Shown: piece after piece, positions 28,290-50,807 of the stretch
Position numbering within the stretch: position 1 is the first letter of the stretch
Layout: the number at the start of each line of letters is the position of its first letter
DNA from: a virus
Taxonomy: Duplodnaviria > Caudoviricetes
DNA: 64,000 bases
Virus record (IMG/VR): IMGVR_UViG_3300028048_000064
Coordinates: 85,925 to 149,924 of that record
Strand: one strand, 5' to 3'
Notes under the pieces: model-generated
What the model was told of the DNA's origin: nothing
Seen by the model: only the letters and a program-made list of their open reading frames with translations
Database searches by the model: none
Made by a program: the position numbers and the translations under genes

Positions 28290-28330
28290 ATAAGAAAATA
28301 ATAGGTTTTTATAATTTTTAACGAAAAATA

Positions 28331-28362
28331 TTTGGTACTTTCATTTTTTTGTAGTACCTTTG
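28331..28362 (+). promoter_or_regulatory. Bacteroidota-type promoter upstream of Ro60
   Basis: TTTG-N20-TACCTTTG. Confidence 0.75.
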
Positions 28363-28550
28363 CAAACGAAAATAGAAAGATAACCTCGTCTAAGGGTAAG
28401 TGCAGGGGTTTGACACACAATGTACATTTGTGAAAAGGGTTGTCTGTGAGGCAAGTAAGGAAAGTGCAACGCCACCCTAATTAGTCTTTCTTTTTTAAAT
28501 ATAGAATAAAAAATTTCTTTTAATAATAACAAATTAAATAGTGATAGATT

Positions 28551-30215
28551 ATGGCAAAGTTTAATTCAAAGAAAGAGGCTACAAAGCCAACCGTAATTAA
28601 TGAGATGGGCGAGAAGGCTTTTGAACTTACCGCAAAGGAAAATCTCGTACAGAGTGTGTTAACCTCATTCCTTCAGGGACAGTACTATGAGAGTGAGTCT
28701 GAGGAAGTAAAGAAAATTCTTGATTGTGTAGATAAGGTTGACCCATTGTTCGTGGCAAAACTTGCATTGTATGCACGTAATGAGGGTAATATGAGGTCAT
28801 CAAGCCATTTGCTTGGTGCTGCATTGGCAAAGTATATTGCCGGTCAGAATTATGCCGCACGTTTCTATAACAAACTCATTGTCCGTCCGGATGATATGTC
28901 TGAGGTGCTTTCATGCTATGGTTCGTTGAACGGCATGAATATTACTGATAAGTCACTTCGTAGGATTCCAAACTCTATTAAGAAGGGATTCAAGGCTGCA
29001 CTTGAGCGTCTTGATGCTTATCAGATTGACAAATATAAGATGAATAGCCGTCAGGTGAAACTCATCGACCTTGTTAATCTGTTGCACCCAACGCCAACAC
29101 AGAAGAATAAGGAAGCTTATAAGCGTCTTATTAACGGTGAGTCTCTTGCTGACCTTTATGAGAGTAAGGTACTGGAGAAGGAAATGTCAAAGGGTGGCCA
29201 GACAGCCAAGACTGAGGAAGAGAAGACTGCTGCAAAGGAGGAAGCAATCTCTACCGTTCTTGACAATGTTAAGGGTATGCCTATTTTCAATCTGCTTCGT
29301 AACCTGCGTAACATTATCCTCTATGCGCCAAACCGTATAGACGATGCTATTGCACAGTTGACCACAAGGGAAAAGATTGTCAATTCAAGATTGCTTCCAT
29401 TCCGTTTCGCAACTGCATACACAGAAATTGAGAACATGAGTTATGAGGCAAAGAAGCCATCATCTTCAATCGCTTTGGAAAGCGAAATCAGTAAGATGAA
29501 ACTCACTCAGAATGAGTTTGCCGCTATTAAAGCAAAGGTTCTTAATGCTCTTGAAGATGCACTTGAGTATGCTTGTGAGAATATTCCGGAGTTTGATAAC
29601 GGCACATACATCTTGGTAGACTCGTCAGGTTCTATGCGAGGGGACATGGGTGGTTCTTCCCGTGTATCTGCATTTTCAAAGACTACCACTTCAATTATTG
29701 GTTATTTGTTTGCTGCAATGGTCGGATGGAAGCAGAAGGATATCTATATCGGCTTGTTCGGTGATAGGCTTATTCCAGTGGAAGTTGACCGTTCTAAGAG
29801 GATGCTCGATTTCTGTAACTACATGAACAGTAAGGGTGGCTCATGTGGTGGTGGTACAGAGGCTGGTATTTATGACTTCCTTCGCCAGTGCATTAAGGAG
29901 AAGAAGAAGGTGGATAACGTAATCGTCTTCTCTGACTGTCAGATTGGTTCCGGTGCAGAGACTGCATGGTATGGCACAGATAGTAGTGACCGTAGTGGAC
30001 GCTTCCAGGACTTGTTCAAGGAGTTCAAGAAGATTAACCCAATGTGTAACTTCATTGTGTGCAATCTTCGTTCGGCTAAGGGTAACTCAGTATTCCACAA
30101 GTCACAGAGAATACTTAACATCGCTGGTTGGAGTGAGAAGATTTTCGATGTGATTAAGTCCAACACCGTTGGTATGGATGCAATCATCAAGAAGATTGAA
30201 GCCATCGAGATATAA
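28551..30215 (+). CDS. rsr: Ro60/TROVE-domain RNA-binding protein (Rsr)
   Basis: TROVE motifs DPLFVAKLALYAR, RPDD, FNLLRNLRNI, SRLLPFRF; C-terminal vWA LVDSSGSM..GGT..FSDCQ..AGWSE. Confidence 0.9.
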   Translation: MAKFNSKKEATKPTVINEMGEKAFELTAKENLVQSVLTSFLQGQYYESESEEVKKILDCVDKVDPLFVAKLALYARNEGNMRSSSHLLGAALAKYIAGQNYAARFYNKLIVRPDDMSEVLSCYGSLNGMNITDKSLRRIPNSIKKGFKAALERLDAYQIDKYKMNSRQVKLIDLVNLLHPTPTQKNKEAYKRLINGESLADLYESKVLEKEMSKGGQTAKTEEEKTAAKEEAISTVLDNVKGMPIFNLLRNLRNIILYAPNRIDDAIAQLTTREKIVNSRLLPFRFATAYTEIENMSYEAKKPSSSIALESEISKMKLTQNEFAAIKAKVLNALEDALEYACENIPEFDNGTYILVDSSGSMRGDMGGSSRVSAFSKTTTSIIGYLFAAMVGWKQKDIYIGLFGDRLIPVEVDRSKRMLDFCNYMNSKGGSCGGGTEAGIYDFLRQCIKEKKKVDNVIVFSDCQIGSGAETAWYGTDSSDRSGRFQDLFKEFKKINPMCNFIVCNLRSAKGNSVFHKSQRILNIAGWSEKIFDVIKSNTVGMDAIIKKIEAIEI

Positions 30216-30436
30216 GGCTGAATATTCAGTAGAATAGTTGACTGAGGCTATTTGCAAGAGAATAGCTGCCACAGGCCGGTGAAAGCAATAGGAGATAATT
30301 ACGTAATAATACCTATGGGCGTACACCTATTAAGAGAAAATAAAAGTTAGAACTAGGCTGTTTCTAGCAACTATTCTTTCCTTTTTCAGAAAAATATCCT
30401 ATATTATTAATATACAACTTTTAAAATTTAAATCCT

Positions 30437-36453: not shown

Positions 36454-36544
36454 TTTATAGTAGATATTAAGAGCCACTATATTTCAAATAATAGTGGCAT
36501 TTTTTTTATTAACAATTTTGTTTAATAAAAAAAAAAATAATATT

Positions 36545-37747
36545 ATGGTGGCATATGAAGACATATTTGAAGCATATTTTGAATGCAGAAAAAAGAAAAG
36601 AGGTAAAAAAACTTCTTTAGAGTTTGAAATGAGTTATGAGGCAGAATGCGTATCTTTAGCAAATGAAATAAATAATCGTACATATGAGATTGGTACATCT
36701 ATAGCATTTTTTGTGCAAAGACCAAAGAAAAGAGAAGTCTTCGCCGCCAATTTTAGAGACCGTGTTGTCCATCATTGGTTAGCGTTAAGGCTTGAACCTT
36801 TATTTGAAAATTTGTTTATTGAAGACACATATAGTTGCAGAAAAGATAAAGGTACGCAATATGGCATTAAATGTTTAAAAGAAAAAATTGAACATTTAAG
36901 TAATAATTATACTGAAGATTGTTATGTTTCAAAATTTGATTTACAAGGCTTTTTCATGTCAATTGACAAGGAAATTCTTTGGACAAAATTAAAACACTTT
37001 ATAGAAGAAAACTACAAAAACACTGTTGATTTTGATGATGTATTATGGGTAACAGAAAAAATAGTCAAGCATTGTCCGGAGAAAAACTGTATAAAACGTT
37101 CTCCTGAAAGTTGGTGGATTGGTTTCCCCGAAGACAAGTCATTATTTACTTGTGGTGAAGGGAAAGGCCTTCCAATTGGCAATTTAACATCTCAACTATT
37201 TGCTAATTTTTATATGCATGAATTTGATGCAATGATGGTAGAAAAATTTGGAGACGGGTATGGCAGATATGTTGATGACTTTTTCATAATTGCTAAAGAT
37301 AAACAAGAGATATTGAATTTTATAAATCCAATGAAAAAGTTTCTTTTTGAAAGACTGCATGTAAAGCTTCATCATAAAAAGATGTATTTGCAGCATGGGT
37401 CAAAAGGTGTTAAATTCATTGGGGGTGTTGTCAAACCAAAACGTATTTATACGGGTAATGAAACCATAACCAACTTCTGTAATGCCATTGATGACATTAA
37501 TAAAAATTATCGTAAATATACAATTGAAGACATTGTATGCCGTCTTAATAGTTATTTTGGTTTTTTGAGACACACTAAAAGCTTTAATATAAGAAAAAGA
37601 ATGTTTTTAAAACTTAATTTAAAAGTTACTAGTAAGCTTTATTGCAGAGGCTTTTACGAAAGTGTTGTAATTAAAAAACAGTTTAAAAAGAAAAATAAAT
37701 TAAAAAATAAGATAAGAAGTTTAATAAAGAATAGTGTTGAATTTTAA
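36545..37747 (+). CDS. DGR reverse transcriptase
   Basis: KREVFAANFRDRVVHH, YSCRKDKGT, DLQGFFMSI, GLPIGNLTSQLFAN, RYVDDF; ATG 36545 is the likely start. Confidence 0.95.
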   Translation: MVAYEDIFEAYFECRKKKRGKKTSLEFEMSYEAECVSLANEINNRTYEIGTSIAFFVQRPKKREVFAANFRDRVVHHWLALRLEPLFENLFIEDTYSCRKDKGTQYGIKCLKEKIEHLSNNYTEDCYVSKFDLQGFFMSIDKEILWTKLKHFIEENYKNTVDFDDVLWVTEKIVKHCPEKNCIKRSPESWWIGFPEDKSLFTCGEGKGLPIGNLTSQLFANFYMHEFDAMMVEKFGDGYGRYVDDFFIIAKDKQEILNFINPMKKFLFERLHVKLHHKKMYLQHGSKGVKFIGGVVKPKRIYTGNETITNFCNAIDDINKNYRKYTIEDIVCRLNSYFGFLRHTKSFNIRKRMFLKLNLKVTSKLYCRGFYESVVIKKQFKKKNKLKNKIRSLIKNSVEF

Positions 37748-39645: not shown

Positions 39646-39717
39646 GCTTGGATAGCTCAGAGGCAGAGCATCGCACTGTTAATGCGAGGGTCGGGATATC
39701 GTAATTCTCTCCAAGCG
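39646..39717 (+). tRNA. tRNA-Asn(GTT), atypical T loop
   Basis: TCGCA-CTGTTAA-TGCGA; acceptor GCTTGGA/TCCAAGC. Confidence 0.8.
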
Positions 39718-42702: not shown

Positions 42703-42777
42703 AGTGCGTTAGTTCAGTAGGTTTAGAATGCCACACTGTCACTGTGGAGGTCGCCGGTTCGAATCCGGTACGCACTG
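42703..42777 (+). tRNA. tRNA-Asp(GTC)
   Basis: CCACA-CTGTCAC-TGTGG. Confidence 0.9.
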
Positions 42778-46117: not shown

Positions 46118-46164
46118 TCAGAACGTGCTATTTGTGGCATAGGTATCGTAAACCTGCCTCTCCG
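46079..46164 (+). tRNA. tRNA-Ser(GCT), atypical D/T loops
   Basis: TCTGA-CTGCTAA-TCAGA; acceptor GGAGAG/CTCTCC, G discriminator. Confidence 0.7.
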
Positions 46165-46197
46165 CAGAGTTTAACATTAAAGCAGAAAGGAAAAATT

Positions 46198-46866
46198 ATG
46201 GAAAACAGTAAATACCCAAGAACGTTTCACGTCCCGTTCTCAGAAGGGTTACAGAATGATGACAGACGTGTTGATGACGATTGGTTTTCCTATTTGAAAG
46301 GAAAGGAACTGATTCTTAGCGAAAAATTAGACGGTGAAAACAGTTCTATATCTCGTTATGGTGTATTTGCTCGTTCTCATGCAGCACCTACAAGGAATCC
46401 TTGGTCAATAAACCTATGGGGAAATGACGGCCTTTATTGGAGAATTAAGGATTTGATTGGTGAAGATGAAATGATTTACGGTGAGAACTTATATGGTGTT
46501 CATTCGATTGAATATAATAGGTTGAAAGAATATTTCCATATGTTTGCCGTAAGGGATGAAGAGAAATGGTATTCTTGGGATGATGTTTCAGAAATGGCAC
46601 AGATTCTTGATTTGCCGACTGTTCCTGTATTGGAAAGACGTTCATTTGACACAGAAGATGAATTAAAGGAACACGTATTGTATTGGATGACGCAAGGCAG
46701 TAGGTATGGTGATACTATTGAGGGTGTTGTTATCCGTAATGTTGATAGTTATCCGATTGATGAGTTTTGTCATAATGTCGTGAAGTATGTACGTAAGAAT
46801 CATGTGCAAACTGACCAATTTTGGGCAAAAAATTGGAGAAAAGCGAAAATAACAGAATATTATTAA
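46198..46866 (+). CDS. ATP-dependent RNA ligase (Rnl2-like nucleotidyltransferase)
   Basis: KYPRTFH, motif I SEKLDGEN, III IYGEN, IV EGVVIR, V KYVR. Confidence 0.85.
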   Translation: MENSKYPRTFHVPFSEGLQNDDRRVDDDWFSYLKGKELILSEKLDGENSSISRYGVFARSHAAPTRNPWSINLWGNDGLYWRIKDLIGEDEMIYGENLYGVHSIEYNRLKEYFHMFAVRDEEKWYSWDDVSEMAQILDLPTVPVLERRSFDTEDELKEHVLYWMTQGSRYGDTIEGVVIRNVDSYPIDEFCHNVVKYVRKNHVQTDQFWAKNWRKAKITEYY

Positions 46867-47777: not shown

Positions 47778-47851
47778 TGGGGTGTCGTATAGTCCGGTTA
47801 GTACACATGACTTTGACTCATGTAGCACCAGTTCAAATCTGGTCGCCCCAA
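47778..47851 (+). tRNA. tRNA-Gln(TTG)
   Basis: CATGA-CTTTGAC-TCATG. Confidence 0.88.
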
Positions 47852-49064: not shown

Positions 49065-49138
49065 GCCCCCATAGCTCAGTTGAATAGAGCACGATACTTC
49101 TAATATCGGGGTCACAGGTTTGAATCCTGTTGGGGGTA
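49065..49138 (+). tRNA. tRNA-Arg(TCT)
   Basis: CGATA-CTTCTAA-TATCG. Confidence 0.9.
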
Positions 49139-49177
49139 CAAAATTTTCTTGAAATTTACAATTTTTAACAAAAAATA

Positions 49178-49209
49178 TTTGGTAGTTTCAAAAATAATTA
49201 GTATCTTTG
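49178..49209 (+). promoter_or_regulatory. Bacteroidota-type promoter heading the Y-RNA-like array
   Basis: TTTG-N20-TATCTTTG. Confidence 0.75.
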
Positions 49210-49269
49210 CAACCGAATTAATGAAGAAAGCGTTCTTTAATATATTTATAATGTAGAAAACAAAAAAAT

Positions 49270-49353
49270 ACGAATAGTGATGTGAGAGTTACTTCGATAC
49301 AATATAATGTGGATATTTTCAATCAAAACTCACTCTCGCTGTTTTTCTTTCGT
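49270..49353 (+). ncRNA. Y-RNA-like unit 1 (stem only, no tRNA module)
   Basis: TAGTGA-TGTGAGA-GTTACTTCGA ... ACTCTCGC..TTTTCTTTCG. Confidence 0.55.
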
Positions 49354-49371
49354 TATTTTTTTAAAATATAA

Positions 49372-49516
49372 GTTGGTAGTGAAGTTAAGGGTTACTTCGA
49401 TTAATTATTGGTTCGAATCCAATAGATTCCGTTTTGGGAATTTTGGCGAAATGGTATACGCGAAACACTTGAAATGTTTTTTAGACAGAAACTCACCCTT
49501 GCTGTGATTCTCCAAT
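49372..49516 (+). ncRNA. Y-RNA-like unit 2, YrlA-type circularly permuted tRNA module
   Basis: Conserved stem encloses T arm (TATTGG-TTCGAAT-CCAATA), loop-closed acceptor (GATTCC/GGAATT), D arm and anticodon-like arm, in that order. Confidence 0.7.
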
Positions 49517-49525
49517 TTTTTATAC

Positions 49526-49665
49526 GGGCGTAAAGTTTAGAAAAAAGAAATTTACTGAAGGTATTTTCTTTGATTTTTCAATAGTGAACTTTACAGTTAC
49601 TTCGAATAGGTTAAAACGTTATCATGTCAAGATAAAGATTCTTGGTTCGACTCCAAGTACGCCCG
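49526..49665 (+). ncRNA. Y-RNA-like unit 3: tRNA-Asp(GTC) with the Y stem inserted (strand-swapped) in its D loop
   Basis: Acceptor GGGCGTA/TACGCCC-G, TTATC-ATGTCAA-GATAA; insert ~49541-49606 carries TAGTGA..GTTACTTCGA. Confidence 0.65.
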
Positions 49666-49670
49666 CAAAC

Positions 49671-49803
49671 AACAAGTAGTGACAGAAGAGTTACTTCGAT
49701 TTTTTAGCTAAGTAGGTTATAGCGCAATTCTGTTAAAATTGATGTCCGAGGTTCGAGTCCTCGAAGAATCTATTTTGTAATACTCTTCTAATTTTCTCTT
49801 GTT
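49671..49803 (+). ncRNA. Y-RNA-like unit 4 enclosing a complete tRNA-Asn(GTT)-like cloverleaf (49698-49771)
   Basis: AACAAG..AGAAGAGT / ACTCTTCT..CTTGTT stem; CAATT-CTGTTAA-AATTG. Confidence 0.7.
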
Positions 49804-49836
49804 TTTCTTTTGAAAGTAGTATATATTTATATACGT

Positions 49837-50019
49837 CTTGCAAGAAAACTCCATCCTTCAGTGTGTGGATGAATTGCAAAAAAAAATTCTTCGTAGGGGC
49901 ATCTACGAATTGGAAAGCGGGTGGAAGACCAGTGAGGCTCCGGCCAAAGGGCATCCCACGAAAGCGTCTAGTACGAAATGTCCAAGAATCCCCTCACTTT
50001 AGGGAGGGGAGTATGTCAA
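49837..50019 (+). mobile_element. Non-autonomous IS200/IS605-type miniature element, copy 2
   Basis: Paralogue of 43975-44158 (shares TTCTTCGTAGGGGCATCTACGAATTGG and GTATGTCAA end). Confidence 0.75.
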
Positions 50020-50028
50020 ATAAGAAAT

Positions 50029-50165
50029 ATGCAGTAGTGACGTGACTGTTACTTCGATAACATTTAGACAAGTGGTTAAGTCGCAATTTTTTGGTAATTG
50101 AGAACGCCGGTTCAATTCCGGCAGTGTTGTAAACAATAGCAAACAGTCACAAATTTTCTCTGTAT
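50029..50165 (+). ncRNA. Y-RNA-like unit 5 enclosing a complete tRNA-Gln(TTG)-like cloverleaf (50058-50130)
   Basis: GTGACTGTT/AACAGTCAC stem; CAATT-TTTTGGT-AATTG; GCCGG-TTCAATT-CCGGC. Confidence 0.7.
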
Positions 50166-50172
50166 TATTTAG

Positions 50173-50337
50173 TGGGCGGTAGTTCAGTGGTAGAACACGA
50201 GTCTCGTCTCTGTAGTTTAATTGGCAGAACACAAATTTTTATGATTTGGACATGAGGTCGATACTCATCGGAGGCACAAAGTTTTAAGAACTTACAAAAT
50301 AATCTCGAAATCCCTGGTTCGAGTCCAGGTCGCCCAA
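50173..50337 (+). tRNA. tRNA-Met(CAT)-like gene interrupted between C34 and A35 by a 93-nt insert (50206-50298) that begins with a full tRNA-like cloverleaf
   Basis: Joined exons give CGAGT-CTC|ATAA-TCTCG; acceptor TGGGCGG/TCGCCCA; T arm CCTGG-TTCGAGT-CCAGG. Confidence 0.7.
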
Positions 50338-50435
50338 CAAAAATATGTTGTCCCAATATATCGTAGGGAGCATGCAATTGTCTATTAATATAGGCTTTTG
50401 CATATTTTATTTTATATATAAAGATTTATTATTAA

Positions 50436-50807
50436 TTGAAAATGAGTGTAAACAGATATGATGAATTATTAAAACAGTTATATGAGAAAGACTTTGTTAA
50501 TTTGAGGTTCACAGTATTCAATTTCATTGAGAATGACGGTTATGTTGCAGAGATTTCCTCTGTTCATGGCAAGAAGTTTGACATTGATGATTTTGAGTTT
50601 ATTGTTTTTGACATTCCGCAGGAGGATAAGAAGGCAATTAAGAATGGAAATGCATTGGTTATTCAGAGATACCAGTCATTTAAGTATTATATTGAAAAGG
50701 AGTGTCAGGAAGTTCCGAATTGCGCTATTTTCATTATGAAAGATTTAGGAATTGTCATTGCAGTTAAGTTAAAATATTATAATCTTGGAAAAATGAATGA
50801 AGCTTAG
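50436..50807 (+). CDS. Hypothetical protein
   Basis: ~121-aa ORF. Confidence 0.55.
   Translation: MKMSVNRYDELLKQLYEKDFVNLRFTVFNFIENDGYVAEISSVHGKKFDIDDFEFIVFDIPQEDKKAIKNGNALVIQRYQSFKYYIEKECQEVPNCAIFIMKDLGIVIAVKLKYYNLGKMNEA

What the first reader, a model, noticed from the sequence alone, without database searches (positions are those of the whole stretch)
49270..50165. Array of five Y-RNA-like stems fused to tRNA modules in four different topologies, in a phage that encodes Ro60
Seen: behind its own promoter (49178), five units share TAGTGA-N7/8-GTTACTTCGA (GTTACTTCGA at 49288, 49391, 49596, 49690, 50048) and a pyrimidine-rich TTCT(C/T) partner strand, with covarying helices between. The payload differs by unit: none (unit 1); circularly permuted tRNA in T-acceptor-D order (unit 2); stem inserted strand-swapped into the D loop of tRNA-Asp (unit 3); complete linear tRNA-Asn and tRNA-Gln cloverleafs enclosed by the stem (units 4, 5). 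Known: bacterial YrlA Y RNAs combine a Ro60-binding stem with a permuted tRNA-like domain. Inference: these are phage Y RNAs for the Ro60 at 28551. Units 3-5, with full anticodon-bearing tRNAs, go beyond the YrlA layout and could display Ro60-tethered tRNA baits for anticodon nucleases, or be Ro60-chaperoned tRNA precursors.
Basis: partly seen in the sequence, partly recalled or inferred. Interest (0 to 1): 0.85.

Follow-up and report, generated by a model that had tools for sequence, protein, structure and literature searches.

The report
Phage Y-RNA array carrying tRNA bodies
A giant rumen phage that encodes the RNA-binding ring protein Ro60 also makes five small RNAs that share one conserved "handle", found right next to Ro60 genes in many other phages, and that carry nothing, a scrambled tRNA or whole tRNAs whose anticodons change between close relatives: an undescribed branch of the known Ro60 partner RNAs (Y RNAs).

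Summary
Five units at 49270-50165 share GUAGUGA-N7/8-GUUACUUCGA plus a UUCU partner strand. They close a covarying two-helix stem.

- **Unit 1:** empty.
- **Unit 2:** a circularly permuted complete tRNA.
- **Unit 3:** tRNA-Asp, with the handle in the D loop.
- **Units 4 and 5:** whole tRNA-Asn and tRNA-Gln cloverleaves.

**Link to Ro60.** 27 of 28 motif-bearing IMG/VR records of 50 kb or more carry a TROVE gene. None of 16 control records does. In 27 loci a Ro60 homologue lies inside the fetched flank, often directly downstream. A covariance model built only from other phages finds units 1, 4 and 5 full length (E about 1e-7).

**Relation to YrlA.** Rfam YrlA does not reach threshold, so this is a divergent, undescribed Y-RNA subfamily.

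**Evidence against plain tRNA genes:**
- Each identity has a stand-alone twin elsewhere in the phage.
- Stems covary in close relatives, but anticodons switch (GUU/GCU/UUC in unit 4; UUG/UGG/AGG in unit 5).
- U33 is sometimes lost.

**Reading.** These are Ro60 handles displaying tRNA-shaped effector modules. Ro60 binding and RNA processing remain untested.

The scan found the same family before on other DNA (e1-5681810, e1-5681821).

The parts
49162..49212 (+). Promoter element of the array: -33 TTTG at 49178-49181 and -7 TATCTTTG at 49202-49209. A near-identical copy sits in front of Ro60 at 28315-28365.
   Evidence: Only these two copies occur in the window at up to 3 mismatches. A looser class has about 9 members in the 150-kb record. 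The element is conserved in L008 and L011.
49270..49353 (+). Unit 1, handle only. Basal stem ACGAA/TTCGT; UAGUGA at 49275-49280; helix 2 at 49282-49289 paired with 49332-49339; UACUUCGA at 49290-49297; 34-nt AU-rich loop.
   Evidence: Model R1, built from other phages, scores 44.3 bits, E 4e-8, full length.
49373..49515 (+). Unit 2, handle plus a circularly permuted complete tRNA. T arm 49407-49423; acceptor closed by a loop 49424-49443; D arm 49446-49461; anticodon arm 49463-49479 (UGA).
   Evidence: ARAGORN calls a full cloverleaf after re-permutation. Sub-threshold Rfam tRNA hit at 49437-49521. The acceptor hairpin covaries in L281.
49526..49665 (+). Unit 3, tRNA-Asp (anticodon GUC at 49626-49628). 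Its D loop holds a strand-swapped handle at 49554-49605, with the basal stem closed by a UUUU loop.
   Evidence: ARAGORN calls tRNA-Asp after the insert is deleted. Compensatory change ACTG/CAGT to ACCG/CGGT in L282 and L284.
49670..49803 (+). Unit 4, handle enclosing a whole tRNA-Asn-like cloverleaf at 49698-49771 (anticodon GUU at 49732-49734, U73).
   Evidence: Rfam tRNA 63.3 bits. R1 scores 43.2 bits, E 8e-8, spanning the tRNA as a 73-nt insert. Anticodon stem and T stem covary in L008.
49833..50020 (+). 190-nt G+C-rich insert of unknown nature between units 4 and 5. Not part of the handle family.
   Evidence: Absent from L008, L281, L283 and L287. In L282, L284, L285 and L286 a sixth handle unit occupies this position. 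No Rfam family reaches threshold (AdoCbl 18 bits). No IMG/VR match. No Pfam match for its small ORFs.
50029..50165 (+). Unit 5, handle enclosing a whole tRNA-Gln-like cloverleaf at 50058-50130 (anticodon UUG at 50091-50093).
   Evidence: Rfam tRNA 51.2 bits. R1 scores 39.6 bits, E 6e-7. All 38 pairs are 100% paired in 9 relatives, with 5 double-sided changes.
28551..30215 (+). Phage Ro60 gene (554 aa), the presumed protein partner.
   Evidence: Pfam TROVE 59 bits and vWA_Ro60 24 bits. The closest solved relative is Thermus phage phiLo Ro60, 9L5Y/9KOP, E 5e-10.

Best explanation
The array is one transcription unit that encodes five Y RNAs, the partner RNAs of the phage's own Ro60.

**The handle.** Each RNA has the same constant handle:
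- a basal helix;
- a bulged U;
- the short helix UAG-UGA paired with UU-U-CU;
- a 7-9 bp variable helix;
- an invariant single-stranded (G)UUACUUCGA at the junction.

By analogy with the bulged stem of known Y RNAs, this handle is where Ro60 binds.

**The distal modules.** The far end of the handle carries an exchangeable tRNA-derived module: nothing, a permuted tRNA, a tRNA holding the handle in its D loop, or a whole tRNA. I think the tRNA bodies mostly stay attached. They would act as tRNA-shaped effector modules that bring Ro60 together with proteins that recognise tRNA shape and, for units 3-5, the anticodon loop.

**Shown:** the family, its structure, its link to Ro60 genes, and the lability of the anticodon.

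**Inferred:** Ro60 binding, co-transcription, that the tRNAs are not released, and what they dock to.

**Odds:** about 0.85-0.9 that these are Ro60 ligands, and about 0.5 that the tRNA bodies work while attached.
For: 1. **Handle structure.** In 12 payload-less units from other phages, 18 pairs are 95.8% paired and 10 pairs change on both sides. No shuffle of 500 reaches this, and slid controls give 31-49%. TAGTGA to TGGTGA co-varies with TTCT to TTCC in L282, L284 and L057.
2. **Detection from other phages.** Model R1, built without the window or L008, finds units 1, 4 and 5 full length at E 4e-8 to 6e-7.
3. **TROVE association.** 27 of 28 motif records of 50 kb or more carry TROVE. None of 16 control records does, fetched with a composition-matched shuffled pattern.
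4. **Ro60 adjacency.** A Ro60 homologue lies inside the flank in 27 motif loci, often 60-400 nt downstream on the same strand, and in 0 of 75 control loci. The same holds beside Ro60 in several MAGs.
5. **Canonical payloads.** The same handle carries the canonical YrlA payload in many loci. Rfam YrlA aligns full length to one of these, with CUAC falling on UUAC.
6. **Shared promoter.** The same 50-nt promoter element precedes Ro60 and the array.
7. **tRNA bodies selected as shapes rather than decoders.**
   - Unit 5 has 38 of 38 pairs intact in 9 relatives while its anticodon loop reads UUG, UGG, AGG or is 8 nt long.
   - Unit 4 reads GUU, GCU or UUC, and has A33 in three relatives.
   - L007 and L034 differ at only 2 of 128 nt, both in the anticodon, while their flanks are 88.8% identical.
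   - Relatives carry bodies with only a 3-4 bp acceptor stem, or none.
   - Stand-alone Asn, Asp and Gln tRNAs exist elsewhere in the phage.
8. **Published precedent.** Thermus phage phiLo Ro60 binds two phage Y-like RNAs and host PNPase (PMC12135203).
Against: - No binding, expression or processing data exist.
- Here the array lies 19 kb from Ro60, outside the 4-kb neighbourhood used to define YrlA.
- Rfam YrlA gives no hit in the window even at E up to 10.
- The published Ro60-contact motif GNCGAA/GGUCCGA sits on the 5' strand of the stem. Here the only CGA lies beyond helix 2, so the true contact site is unknown.
- The window's own units 4 and 5 have 7-bp acceptor stems, U33 and good tRNA scores. 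RNase P and RNase Z could well release them.
- The association counts include related contigs, so they are not all independent.
- Single-sequence folding energies are not significant.
Confidence: 0.6

Rival explanations
1. Units 3-5 are tRNA precursors. The handle is a leader-trailer stem, possibly held by Ro60 as a chaperone or quality-control handle. RNase P and a 3' nuclease remove it, and the released tRNAs decode Asp, Asn and Gln codons.
For: The window's units 4 and 5 are good cloverleaves (63.3 and 51.2 bits). They have 7-bp acceptor stems, U33 and 7-nt anticodon loops. Stems covary, as expected for functional tRNA shape. The array sits in the tRNA region, next to an RNA ligase gene at 46132-46866. 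M. smegmatis YrlA is cut by RNase P and receives CCA (PMC4201824).
Against: - Anticodons differ between close relatives, and GCU sits on a class-I body with no long variable arm.
- A33 replaces U33 in units 3 and 4 of some relatives.
- Unit 5 has U1.G72, A2-U71 and A3-U70. The stand-alone tRNA-Gln has U1-A72, G2-C71 and G3-C70. Judging this uses E. coli GlnRS identity rules, which is my inference.
- Unit 4 has U73, where the stand-alone tRNA-Asn has G73.
- All three identities are redundant with stand-alone genes.
- Units 1 and 2 and many relatives cannot yield a chargeable tRNA.
- The 64-nt D-loop insert of unit 3 has no known removal route.
Confidence: 0.2
2. The handle is bound not by Ro60 but by another phage or host protein, or it acts only as a processing or stability element. 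It travels with Ro60 genes only because both belong to the same phage lineages.
For: In the window the array is 19 kb from Ro60. The handle lacks the published GNCGAA motif at the expected place (PMC4201824). The motif-bearing contigs are partly related to one another.
Against: The handle sits immediately upstream of Ro60, on the same strand, in loci whose Ro60 proteins are only 30-35% identical to the window's. It also does so in MAGs of several bacterial phyla, so simple shared descent is a poor explanation. Its layout is the Y RNA/YrlA layout.
Confidence: 0.08
3. The repeats are remnants of duplicated tRNA leaders or of a mobile element, with no function of their own.
For: None specific. 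The region does show insertion and deletion of whole modules.
Against: The handles are identical between the window and L008 while the payloads diverge with compensatory changes. There is strong covariation across distant phages. The L007 and L034 unit is far more conserved than its flanks.
Confidence: 0.02

Closest known systems
YrlA (Y RNA-like A; Rfam RF02553; Chen et al. 2014, PMC4201824; Wang et al. 2018, bioRxiv 10.1101/312249)
   Same: - Encoded in genomes with Ro60, and right beside it in many relatives.
- The 5' and 3' ends form a two-helix stem with an internal bulged region.
- A conserved YUAY (here UUAC) starts the junction.
- Unit 2 and many relatives carry the T arm, closed acceptor-like hairpin and D arm in that order.
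- Several Y RNAs per genome.
   Different: - Does not reach the Rfam threshold: no hit in the window, and 21.4 bits against 69 for a relative.
- The handle sequence differs: GUAGUGA and UACUUCGA instead of GNCGAA(N)G.
- Unit 2 keeps a full anticodon arm, which YrlA lacks.
- Units 3-5 carry whole tRNAs with anticodon loops.
- Unit 1 has no tRNA-like module.
- In this phage the array lies 19 kb from Ro60.
Deinococcus radiodurans Yrn1 (Chen et al. 2014, PMC4201824, sections 6 and 10)
   Same: The tRNA-like parts are in linear order (D-like, anticodon-like arm, T arm), enclosed by the Ro60-binding stem. Units 4 and 5, and the acceptor-less relatives, share this.
   Different: Yrn1 has only partial D features, a 6-nt 'anticodon' loop and no acceptor stem. 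Units 4 and 5 are complete cloverleaves that score as tRNA genes. In this family the two orientations share one handle inside one array.
Thermus phage phiLo Ro60 with Yrl1 and Yrl2 (PMC12135203; PDB 9L5Y, 9KOP)
   Same: A phage-encoded Ro60 with more than one phage-encoded Y-like RNA. This Ro60 is the closest solved relative of the window's Ro60. Binding of the RNAs, and of host PNPase, has been shown there.
   Different: The phiLo RNAs are stem-bulge-stem RNAs with a CGAA motif beside the Ro60 gene. That paper reports no tRNA bodies.
Permuted tRNA genes and other tRNA mimics (tmRNA, viral tRNA-like structures)
   Same: Unit 2 is a circular permutation of a complete cloverleaf. tRNA shape is reused for a non-decoding role.
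   Different: Unit 2's acceptor stem is sealed by a loop, and the break, in the variable region, is occupied by the Ro60-type handle. No processing route to a normal tRNA is evident.

Membership tests
Y RNA (Ro60 partner RNA) | Physically bound by Ro60 | not testable with these tools
   No RNA-protein tool is available. EMSA or RIP is needed.
Y RNA (Ro60 partner RNA) | Genome encodes a Ro60 orthologue, and the RNA family tracks that gene | tested here: met
   Ro60 at 28551-30215. TROVE in 27 of 28 motif records against 0 of 16 controls. Ro60 in the flank of 27 motif loci against 0 of 75 control loci.
Y RNA (Ro60 partner RNA) | Encoded within about 4 kb of Ro60 on the same strand (criterion of Chen 2014) | tested here: not met
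   In the window the array starts 19 kb downstream of Ro60, on the same strand. Many relatives of the family do meet the criterion.
Y RNA (Ro60 partner RNA) | 5' and 3' ends form a long stem containing a conserved bulged helix | tested here: met
   18-pair stem with a bulged U, 95.8% paired, 10 pairs with double-sided changes. In unit 3 the stem is circularly permuted.
Y RNA (Ro60 partner RNA) | GGUCCGA or GNCGAA(N0-1)G on the 5' strand of the stem | tested here: inconclusive
   The positionally equivalent 5' strand reads GUAGUGA (alignment). An invariant UUCGA exists, but it lies distal to helix 2.
YrlA (Rfam RF02553) | Scores at or above the family's gathering threshold (69 bits) | tested here: not met
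   No YrlA hit in 49100-50450 at E up to 10. A canonical-looking relative, L039, scores 21.4 bits.
YrlA (Rfam RF02553) | Module order T arm, closed acceptor-like hairpin, D arm, and no anticodon loop | tested here: not met
   Only unit 2 has this order, and it also keeps a 5-bp, 7-nt-loop anticodon arm. Units 1, 3, 4 and 5 have other layouts.
Decoding tRNA (units 4 and 5) | Cloverleaf scoring above the tRNA model threshold | tested here: met
   63.3 and 51.2 bits against 29. ARAGORN calls Asn GUU and Gln UUG.
Decoding tRNA (units 4 and 5) | Anticodon and U33 conserved among close relatives | tested here: not met
   Unit 4 reads GUU, GCU or UUC, with A33 in L008, L287 and L284. Unit 5 reads UUG, UGG or AGG, or has an extra loop base.
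Decoding tRNA (units 4 and 5) | Acceptor-end identity elements of the cognate synthetase | tested here: inconclusive
   Unit 5 lacks the G2-C71 and G3-C70 pairs that the stand-alone tRNA-Gln has. Unit 4 has U73 where the stand-alone tRNA-Asn has G73. The identity rules come from E. coli, and host rules are unknown.
Decoding tRNA (units 4 and 5) | Released with mature ends, CCA-tailed and aminoacylated | not testable with these tools
   Needs RNA-seq or northern blots and charging assays.

The most novel reading that the evidence does not exclude
The whole-tRNA units are Ro60-tethered anticodon displays. They would be decoys or capture probes for host factors that read a specific anticodon loop, for example anticodon nucleases used in anti-phage defence. 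Phages would retarget them by switching the anticodon while keeping the rest of the RNA fixed. In this lineage several modules carry GUN anticodons (Asp, Asn, and Tyr in the sixth unit of relatives). Ro60, perhaps with host PNPase, would then act on whatever is captured.
Probability: 0.15. Interest if true: 0.9.

Novelty: new variant of a known kind. Interest (0 to 1): 0.72.

Why it matters
Y RNAs are known as Ro60 tethers, but what their tRNA-like end is for has stayed open since 2014. This family offers a natural experiment. One strictly conserved handle is joined to tRNA bodies at four different points, in arrays of 2-7 units, across many large phages and some bacteria.

The stems are held by compensatory changes, while the anticodon triplet switches between near-identical relatives. 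That points to the anticodon loop as a specificity element of a Ro60 particle, which would be new.

The question becomes directly testable: binding assays with one recombinant protein and five short RNAs, and end-mapping in metatranscriptomes. The work also supplies a covariance model for a Y-RNA subfamily that the Rfam YrlA model does not detect at its threshold.

Tried and rejected
- **Rfam.** Gathering and E up to 10 searches gave no Y RNA or YrlA hit in the window. Nothing turned up around Ro60 either.
- **GenBank phages.** blastn of the array gave no match.
- **Raw pattern counts.** 84 hits for the real pattern against 75 for the shuffled one. This does not by itself exceed chance, and about half of the real-pattern hits are chance or coding matches. 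The signal lies in structure and TROVE linkage.
- **First partner search.** An unanchored search scored controls as high as real hits. I replaced it with an anchored version: 30 of 74 real hits score 10 or more, against 0 of 51 controls.
- **MAFFT alignment A1.** It misaligned the 3' strands. I replaced it with A2.
- **Model R1.** With filters off it cannot span the payloads. Unit 2 and the permuted unit 3 are not found full length by R1.
- **Single-sequence MFE z-scores.** Not significant.
- **Sigma-70 promoter and terminator scan.** Uninformative for a Bacteroidota-type host.
- **G+C-rich insert at 49833-50020.** No IMG/VR match, no Pfam match for its small ORFs, and only an 18-bit AdoCbl-like alignment. 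Left unexplained.
- **Anticodon-masked searches for more relatives.** They returned only known loci.
- **Papers not held.** The reviews by Sim and Wolin, and Burroughs and Aravind 2016, could not be read. My statement that whole-tRNA Y RNAs are unpublished therefore rests on five full-text searches only.
Full report
**1. What is in the sequence**

GTTACTTCGA occurs exactly five times in the window, at 49288, 49391, 49596, 49690 and 50048, all on the + strand. It occurs nowhere else in the window or in the 150-kb record. Each copy follows TAGTGA and 7-8 bases.

In units 1, 2, 4 and 5 three things line up:
- The bases before TAGTGA pair with bases that follow a downstream UUCU.
- The 6 bases before GT(TAC) pair with a strand starting AC.
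- The helix sequences differ between units (GTGAGAGT/ACTCTCGC, AGAAGAGT/ACTCTTCT, GTGACTGT/ACAGTCAC).

In unit 3 the two strands come in the opposite order and the basal helix is closed by UUUU.

The window is part of a 149,924-bp IMG/VR virus record of 34% G+C. It carries 27 tRNA hits and a tmRNA. It has Bacteroidota-type promoters, TTTG and TAnnTTTG. Earlier notes of this scan describe it as a cattle-rumen giant phage.

**2.

- **Unit 1:** only a 34-nt AU-rich loop.
- **Unit 2:** T arm, an acceptor stem sealed by a loop, D arm and, beyond YrlA, a full anticodon arm. When the pieces are put back in tRNA order, ARAGORN calls a complete cloverleaf with anticodon UGA.
- **Unit 3:** minus the insert in its D loop, ARAGORN calls tRNA-Asp GUC.
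- **Units 4 and 5:** Rfam tRNA hits of 63.3 and 51.2 bits, Asn GUU and Gln UUG.

**3. The handle is a real, conserved RNA structure**

An IMG/VR scan for TAGTGA-N6-9-GTTACTTCGA gave 84 loci. A composition-matched shuffled pattern gave 75, so the raw count is near chance.

With an anchored test (AC start, CT anchor, complementarity of both helices), 30 of 74 distinct real hits score 10 or more. None of 51 controls does.

Twelve payload-less units from other phages align cleanly (A2). For the 18-pair stem:
- 95.8% of cells pair.
- 10 pairs change on both sides.
- No shuffle of 500 reaches this.
- Sliding the partner strand gives 31-49%.

TAGTGA is not a loop. A and G pair with the CU of UUCU, G.U and A-U pairs follow, and the first U is bulged. 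TAGTGA to TGGTGA goes with TTCT to TTCC.

A covariance model built from these twelve units contains neither the window nor L008. It finds units 1, 4 and 5 full length at E 4e-8, 8e-8 and 6e-7, bridging the tRNAs as inserts. It does not find unit 2 or the permuted unit 3 full length.

**4. The handle belongs to Ro60**

- TROVE (PF05731) is above its cut-off in 27 of 28 motif-bearing records of 50 kb or more. The one miss is a 15%-complete fragment. It is present in 0 of 16 control records of the same size class.
- tblastn with the window's Ro60 finds a homologue inside the fetched flank of 27 motif loci and of no control locus. Often it starts 60-400 nt downstream of a unit on the same strand, as in L002, L039, L053, L069 and L083.
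- These Ro60 proteins are mostly only 30-35% identical to the window's. The link therefore holds across wide divergence, although some contigs are related to each other.
- The handle also lies next to Ro60 in MAGs of Saprospiraceae, other Bacteroidota, Thermoanaerobaculia, Brevinema and Verrucomicrobiales.
- In many loci the same handle carries the canonical YrlA payload.
- Rfam's YrlA model aligns end to end with one such unit at only 21.4 bits (threshold 69). It places YrlA's CUAC on UUAC and its 5' GNCGAAUG on GUAGUGA.
- In the window, the Ro60 gene and the array are preceded by the same 50-nt promoter element. These are the only two copies in 64 kb at up to 3 mismatches. A looser class has about nine members in the record.

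**5. Arrays and modular payloads are general**

The model finds 66 units in the IMG/VR loci, with up to seven in one locus (L057) and four just upstream of Ro60 (L039). Payload classes seen:
- none;
- T, acceptor hairpin, D;
- the same plus an anticodon arm;
- D, anticodon, T with no acceptor stem, or with only UUCG/CGA(A);
- whole tRNAs;
- roughly 200-260-nt non-tRNA RNAs on a variant handle (TAGCGA...GATACTTCGA) directly before Ro60.

**6. Are the whole tRNAs decoders?**

The evidence leans against.

- **Each identity has a stand-alone twin**:
  - Asn GUU at 39646-39717, with G73;
  - Asp GUC at 42703;
  - Gln UUG at 47778, with U1-A72, G2-C71 and G3-C70.
  - Unit 4 has U73. Unit 5 has U1.G72, A2-U71 and A3-U70.
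- **Anticodons vary in eight metagenome relatives plus L008**:
  - Unit 4 reads GUU, GCU or UUC, and has A33 in three.
  - Unit 5 reads UUG, UGG or AGG, or has an extra U.
  - Unit 3 reads GUC in all but one, with A33 in three (L282, L285, L286).
- **The structure is nevertheless held.** All 38 pairs of handle plus cloverleaf in unit 5 are intact in nine sequences, with five double-sided changes.
- **An independent lineage shows the same pattern.** L007 and L034 differ at 2 of 128 positions, both in the anticodon (GAU against UCU; L026 has UUU). Their flanks are 88.8% identical.

So tRNA shape is under purifying selection and the anticodon is either free to change or driven to change.

The window's own units 4 and 5 remain good enough tRNAs that release and use cannot be excluded.

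**7. Comparison with what is known**

- D. radiodurans Yrn1 has the other orientation, with a partial anticodon-like arm (PMC4201824, section 10).
- Thermus phage phiLo Ro60 binds two phage Y-like RNAs and host PNPase (PMC12135203). It is the closest solved relative of this Ro60.
- Jumbo phages are known to carry ROT/TROVE proteins with a tRNA-like partner (PMC7824862).

I found no paper describing this handle, whole anticodon-bearing tRNAs on a Y stem, a handle inside a D loop, or both orientations in one array. Three relevant papers, two reviews and Burroughs and Aravind 2016, were not available to me.

This scan has reported the same family on related DNA (e1-5681810, e1-5681821). It has also reported analogous handle arrays beside Ro60-like genes in other phages.

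**8. Verdict**

The Y-RNA reading is supported, at about 0.85-0.9. It is a new variant of a known kind.

The best mechanistic reading is a Ro60 handle displaying tRNA-shaped modules that stay attached, at about 0.5. Release as tRNAs is the main rival, at about 0.2. A decoy role directed at anticodon-reading host factors is the most novel reading still open, at about 0.15.

Noticed in passing
window 49833-50020: A 190-nt G+C-rich (about 50%) structured insert sits between units 4 and 5. L008, L281, L283 and L287 lack it. L282, L284, L285 and L286 carry a sixth handle unit at that spot, so this junction is a hot spot for module exchange. The only signal is an 18-bit AdoCbl-like alignment. No IMG/VR match, and no Pfam match for its 54-60-aa ORFs.
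   Followed up: partly
window 28366-28495 and 30216-30380: Two possibly structured non-coding stretches flank the Ro60 gene. The first lies between the shared promoter and the start codon and is closed by AGAAAGA/TCTTTCT. The second is closed by GAATAGTTG/CAACTATTC. Neither has an Rfam match or the handle motif. They could be further Ro60-associated RNAs or leaders.
   Followed up: partly
L010:2625-2900, L015:10050-10334 (-), L018, L063, L068, L053:3175-3439 (-), L083:7269-7532: In many related phages a second, long Y-like RNA lies directly before Ro60. It has a variant handle (CATAGCGA-N8-GATACTTCGA ... TTTTCTTGTTTG, or TAGTGA...) that encloses a roughly 200-260-nt non-tRNA payload containing GGTGAAAAAGTCCGG and CGTAAAGG. 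A strong terminator follows. No Rfam match.
   Followed up: partly
window 39646-39717: A stand-alone tRNA-Asn (GUU, G73) with an odd T loop. ARAGORN misses it, but Rfam scores it at 50.8 bits.
   Followed up: partly
window 49216-49269: The transcribed leader before unit 1 has a block, GTTCTTTAATATATTTATAA, that is conserved in L008, L011, L282 and L284. The 20 nt just after the promoter diverge completely. Its role is unknown.
   Followed up: no
window 46132-46866 and 36494-37747: An RNA ligase gene (PF09414) lies inside the tRNA region, 2.3 kb upstream of the array. A reverse transcriptase gene (RVT_1) lies further upstream.
   Followed up: no
window 50173-50337: Immediately after unit 5 lies a tRNA gene split in its anticodon loop by a 93-nt tRNA-shaped insert. 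ARAGORN reads the inner one as anticodon UUA. Other reports of this scan already treat it (e1-5822865), so I did not pursue it. In L008 and L011 this position holds an unsplit tRNA(CAU) with a long variable arm.
   Followed up: no
L280, L281, L286 (unit 5 anticodon arm): Three relatives have one extra U in the unit 5 anticodon arm. This gives either an 8-nt loop (UUUUGGGU), as in +1 frameshift suppressor tRNAs, or a bulged stem with a 7-nt loop. The alignment cannot tell which.
   Followed up: partly
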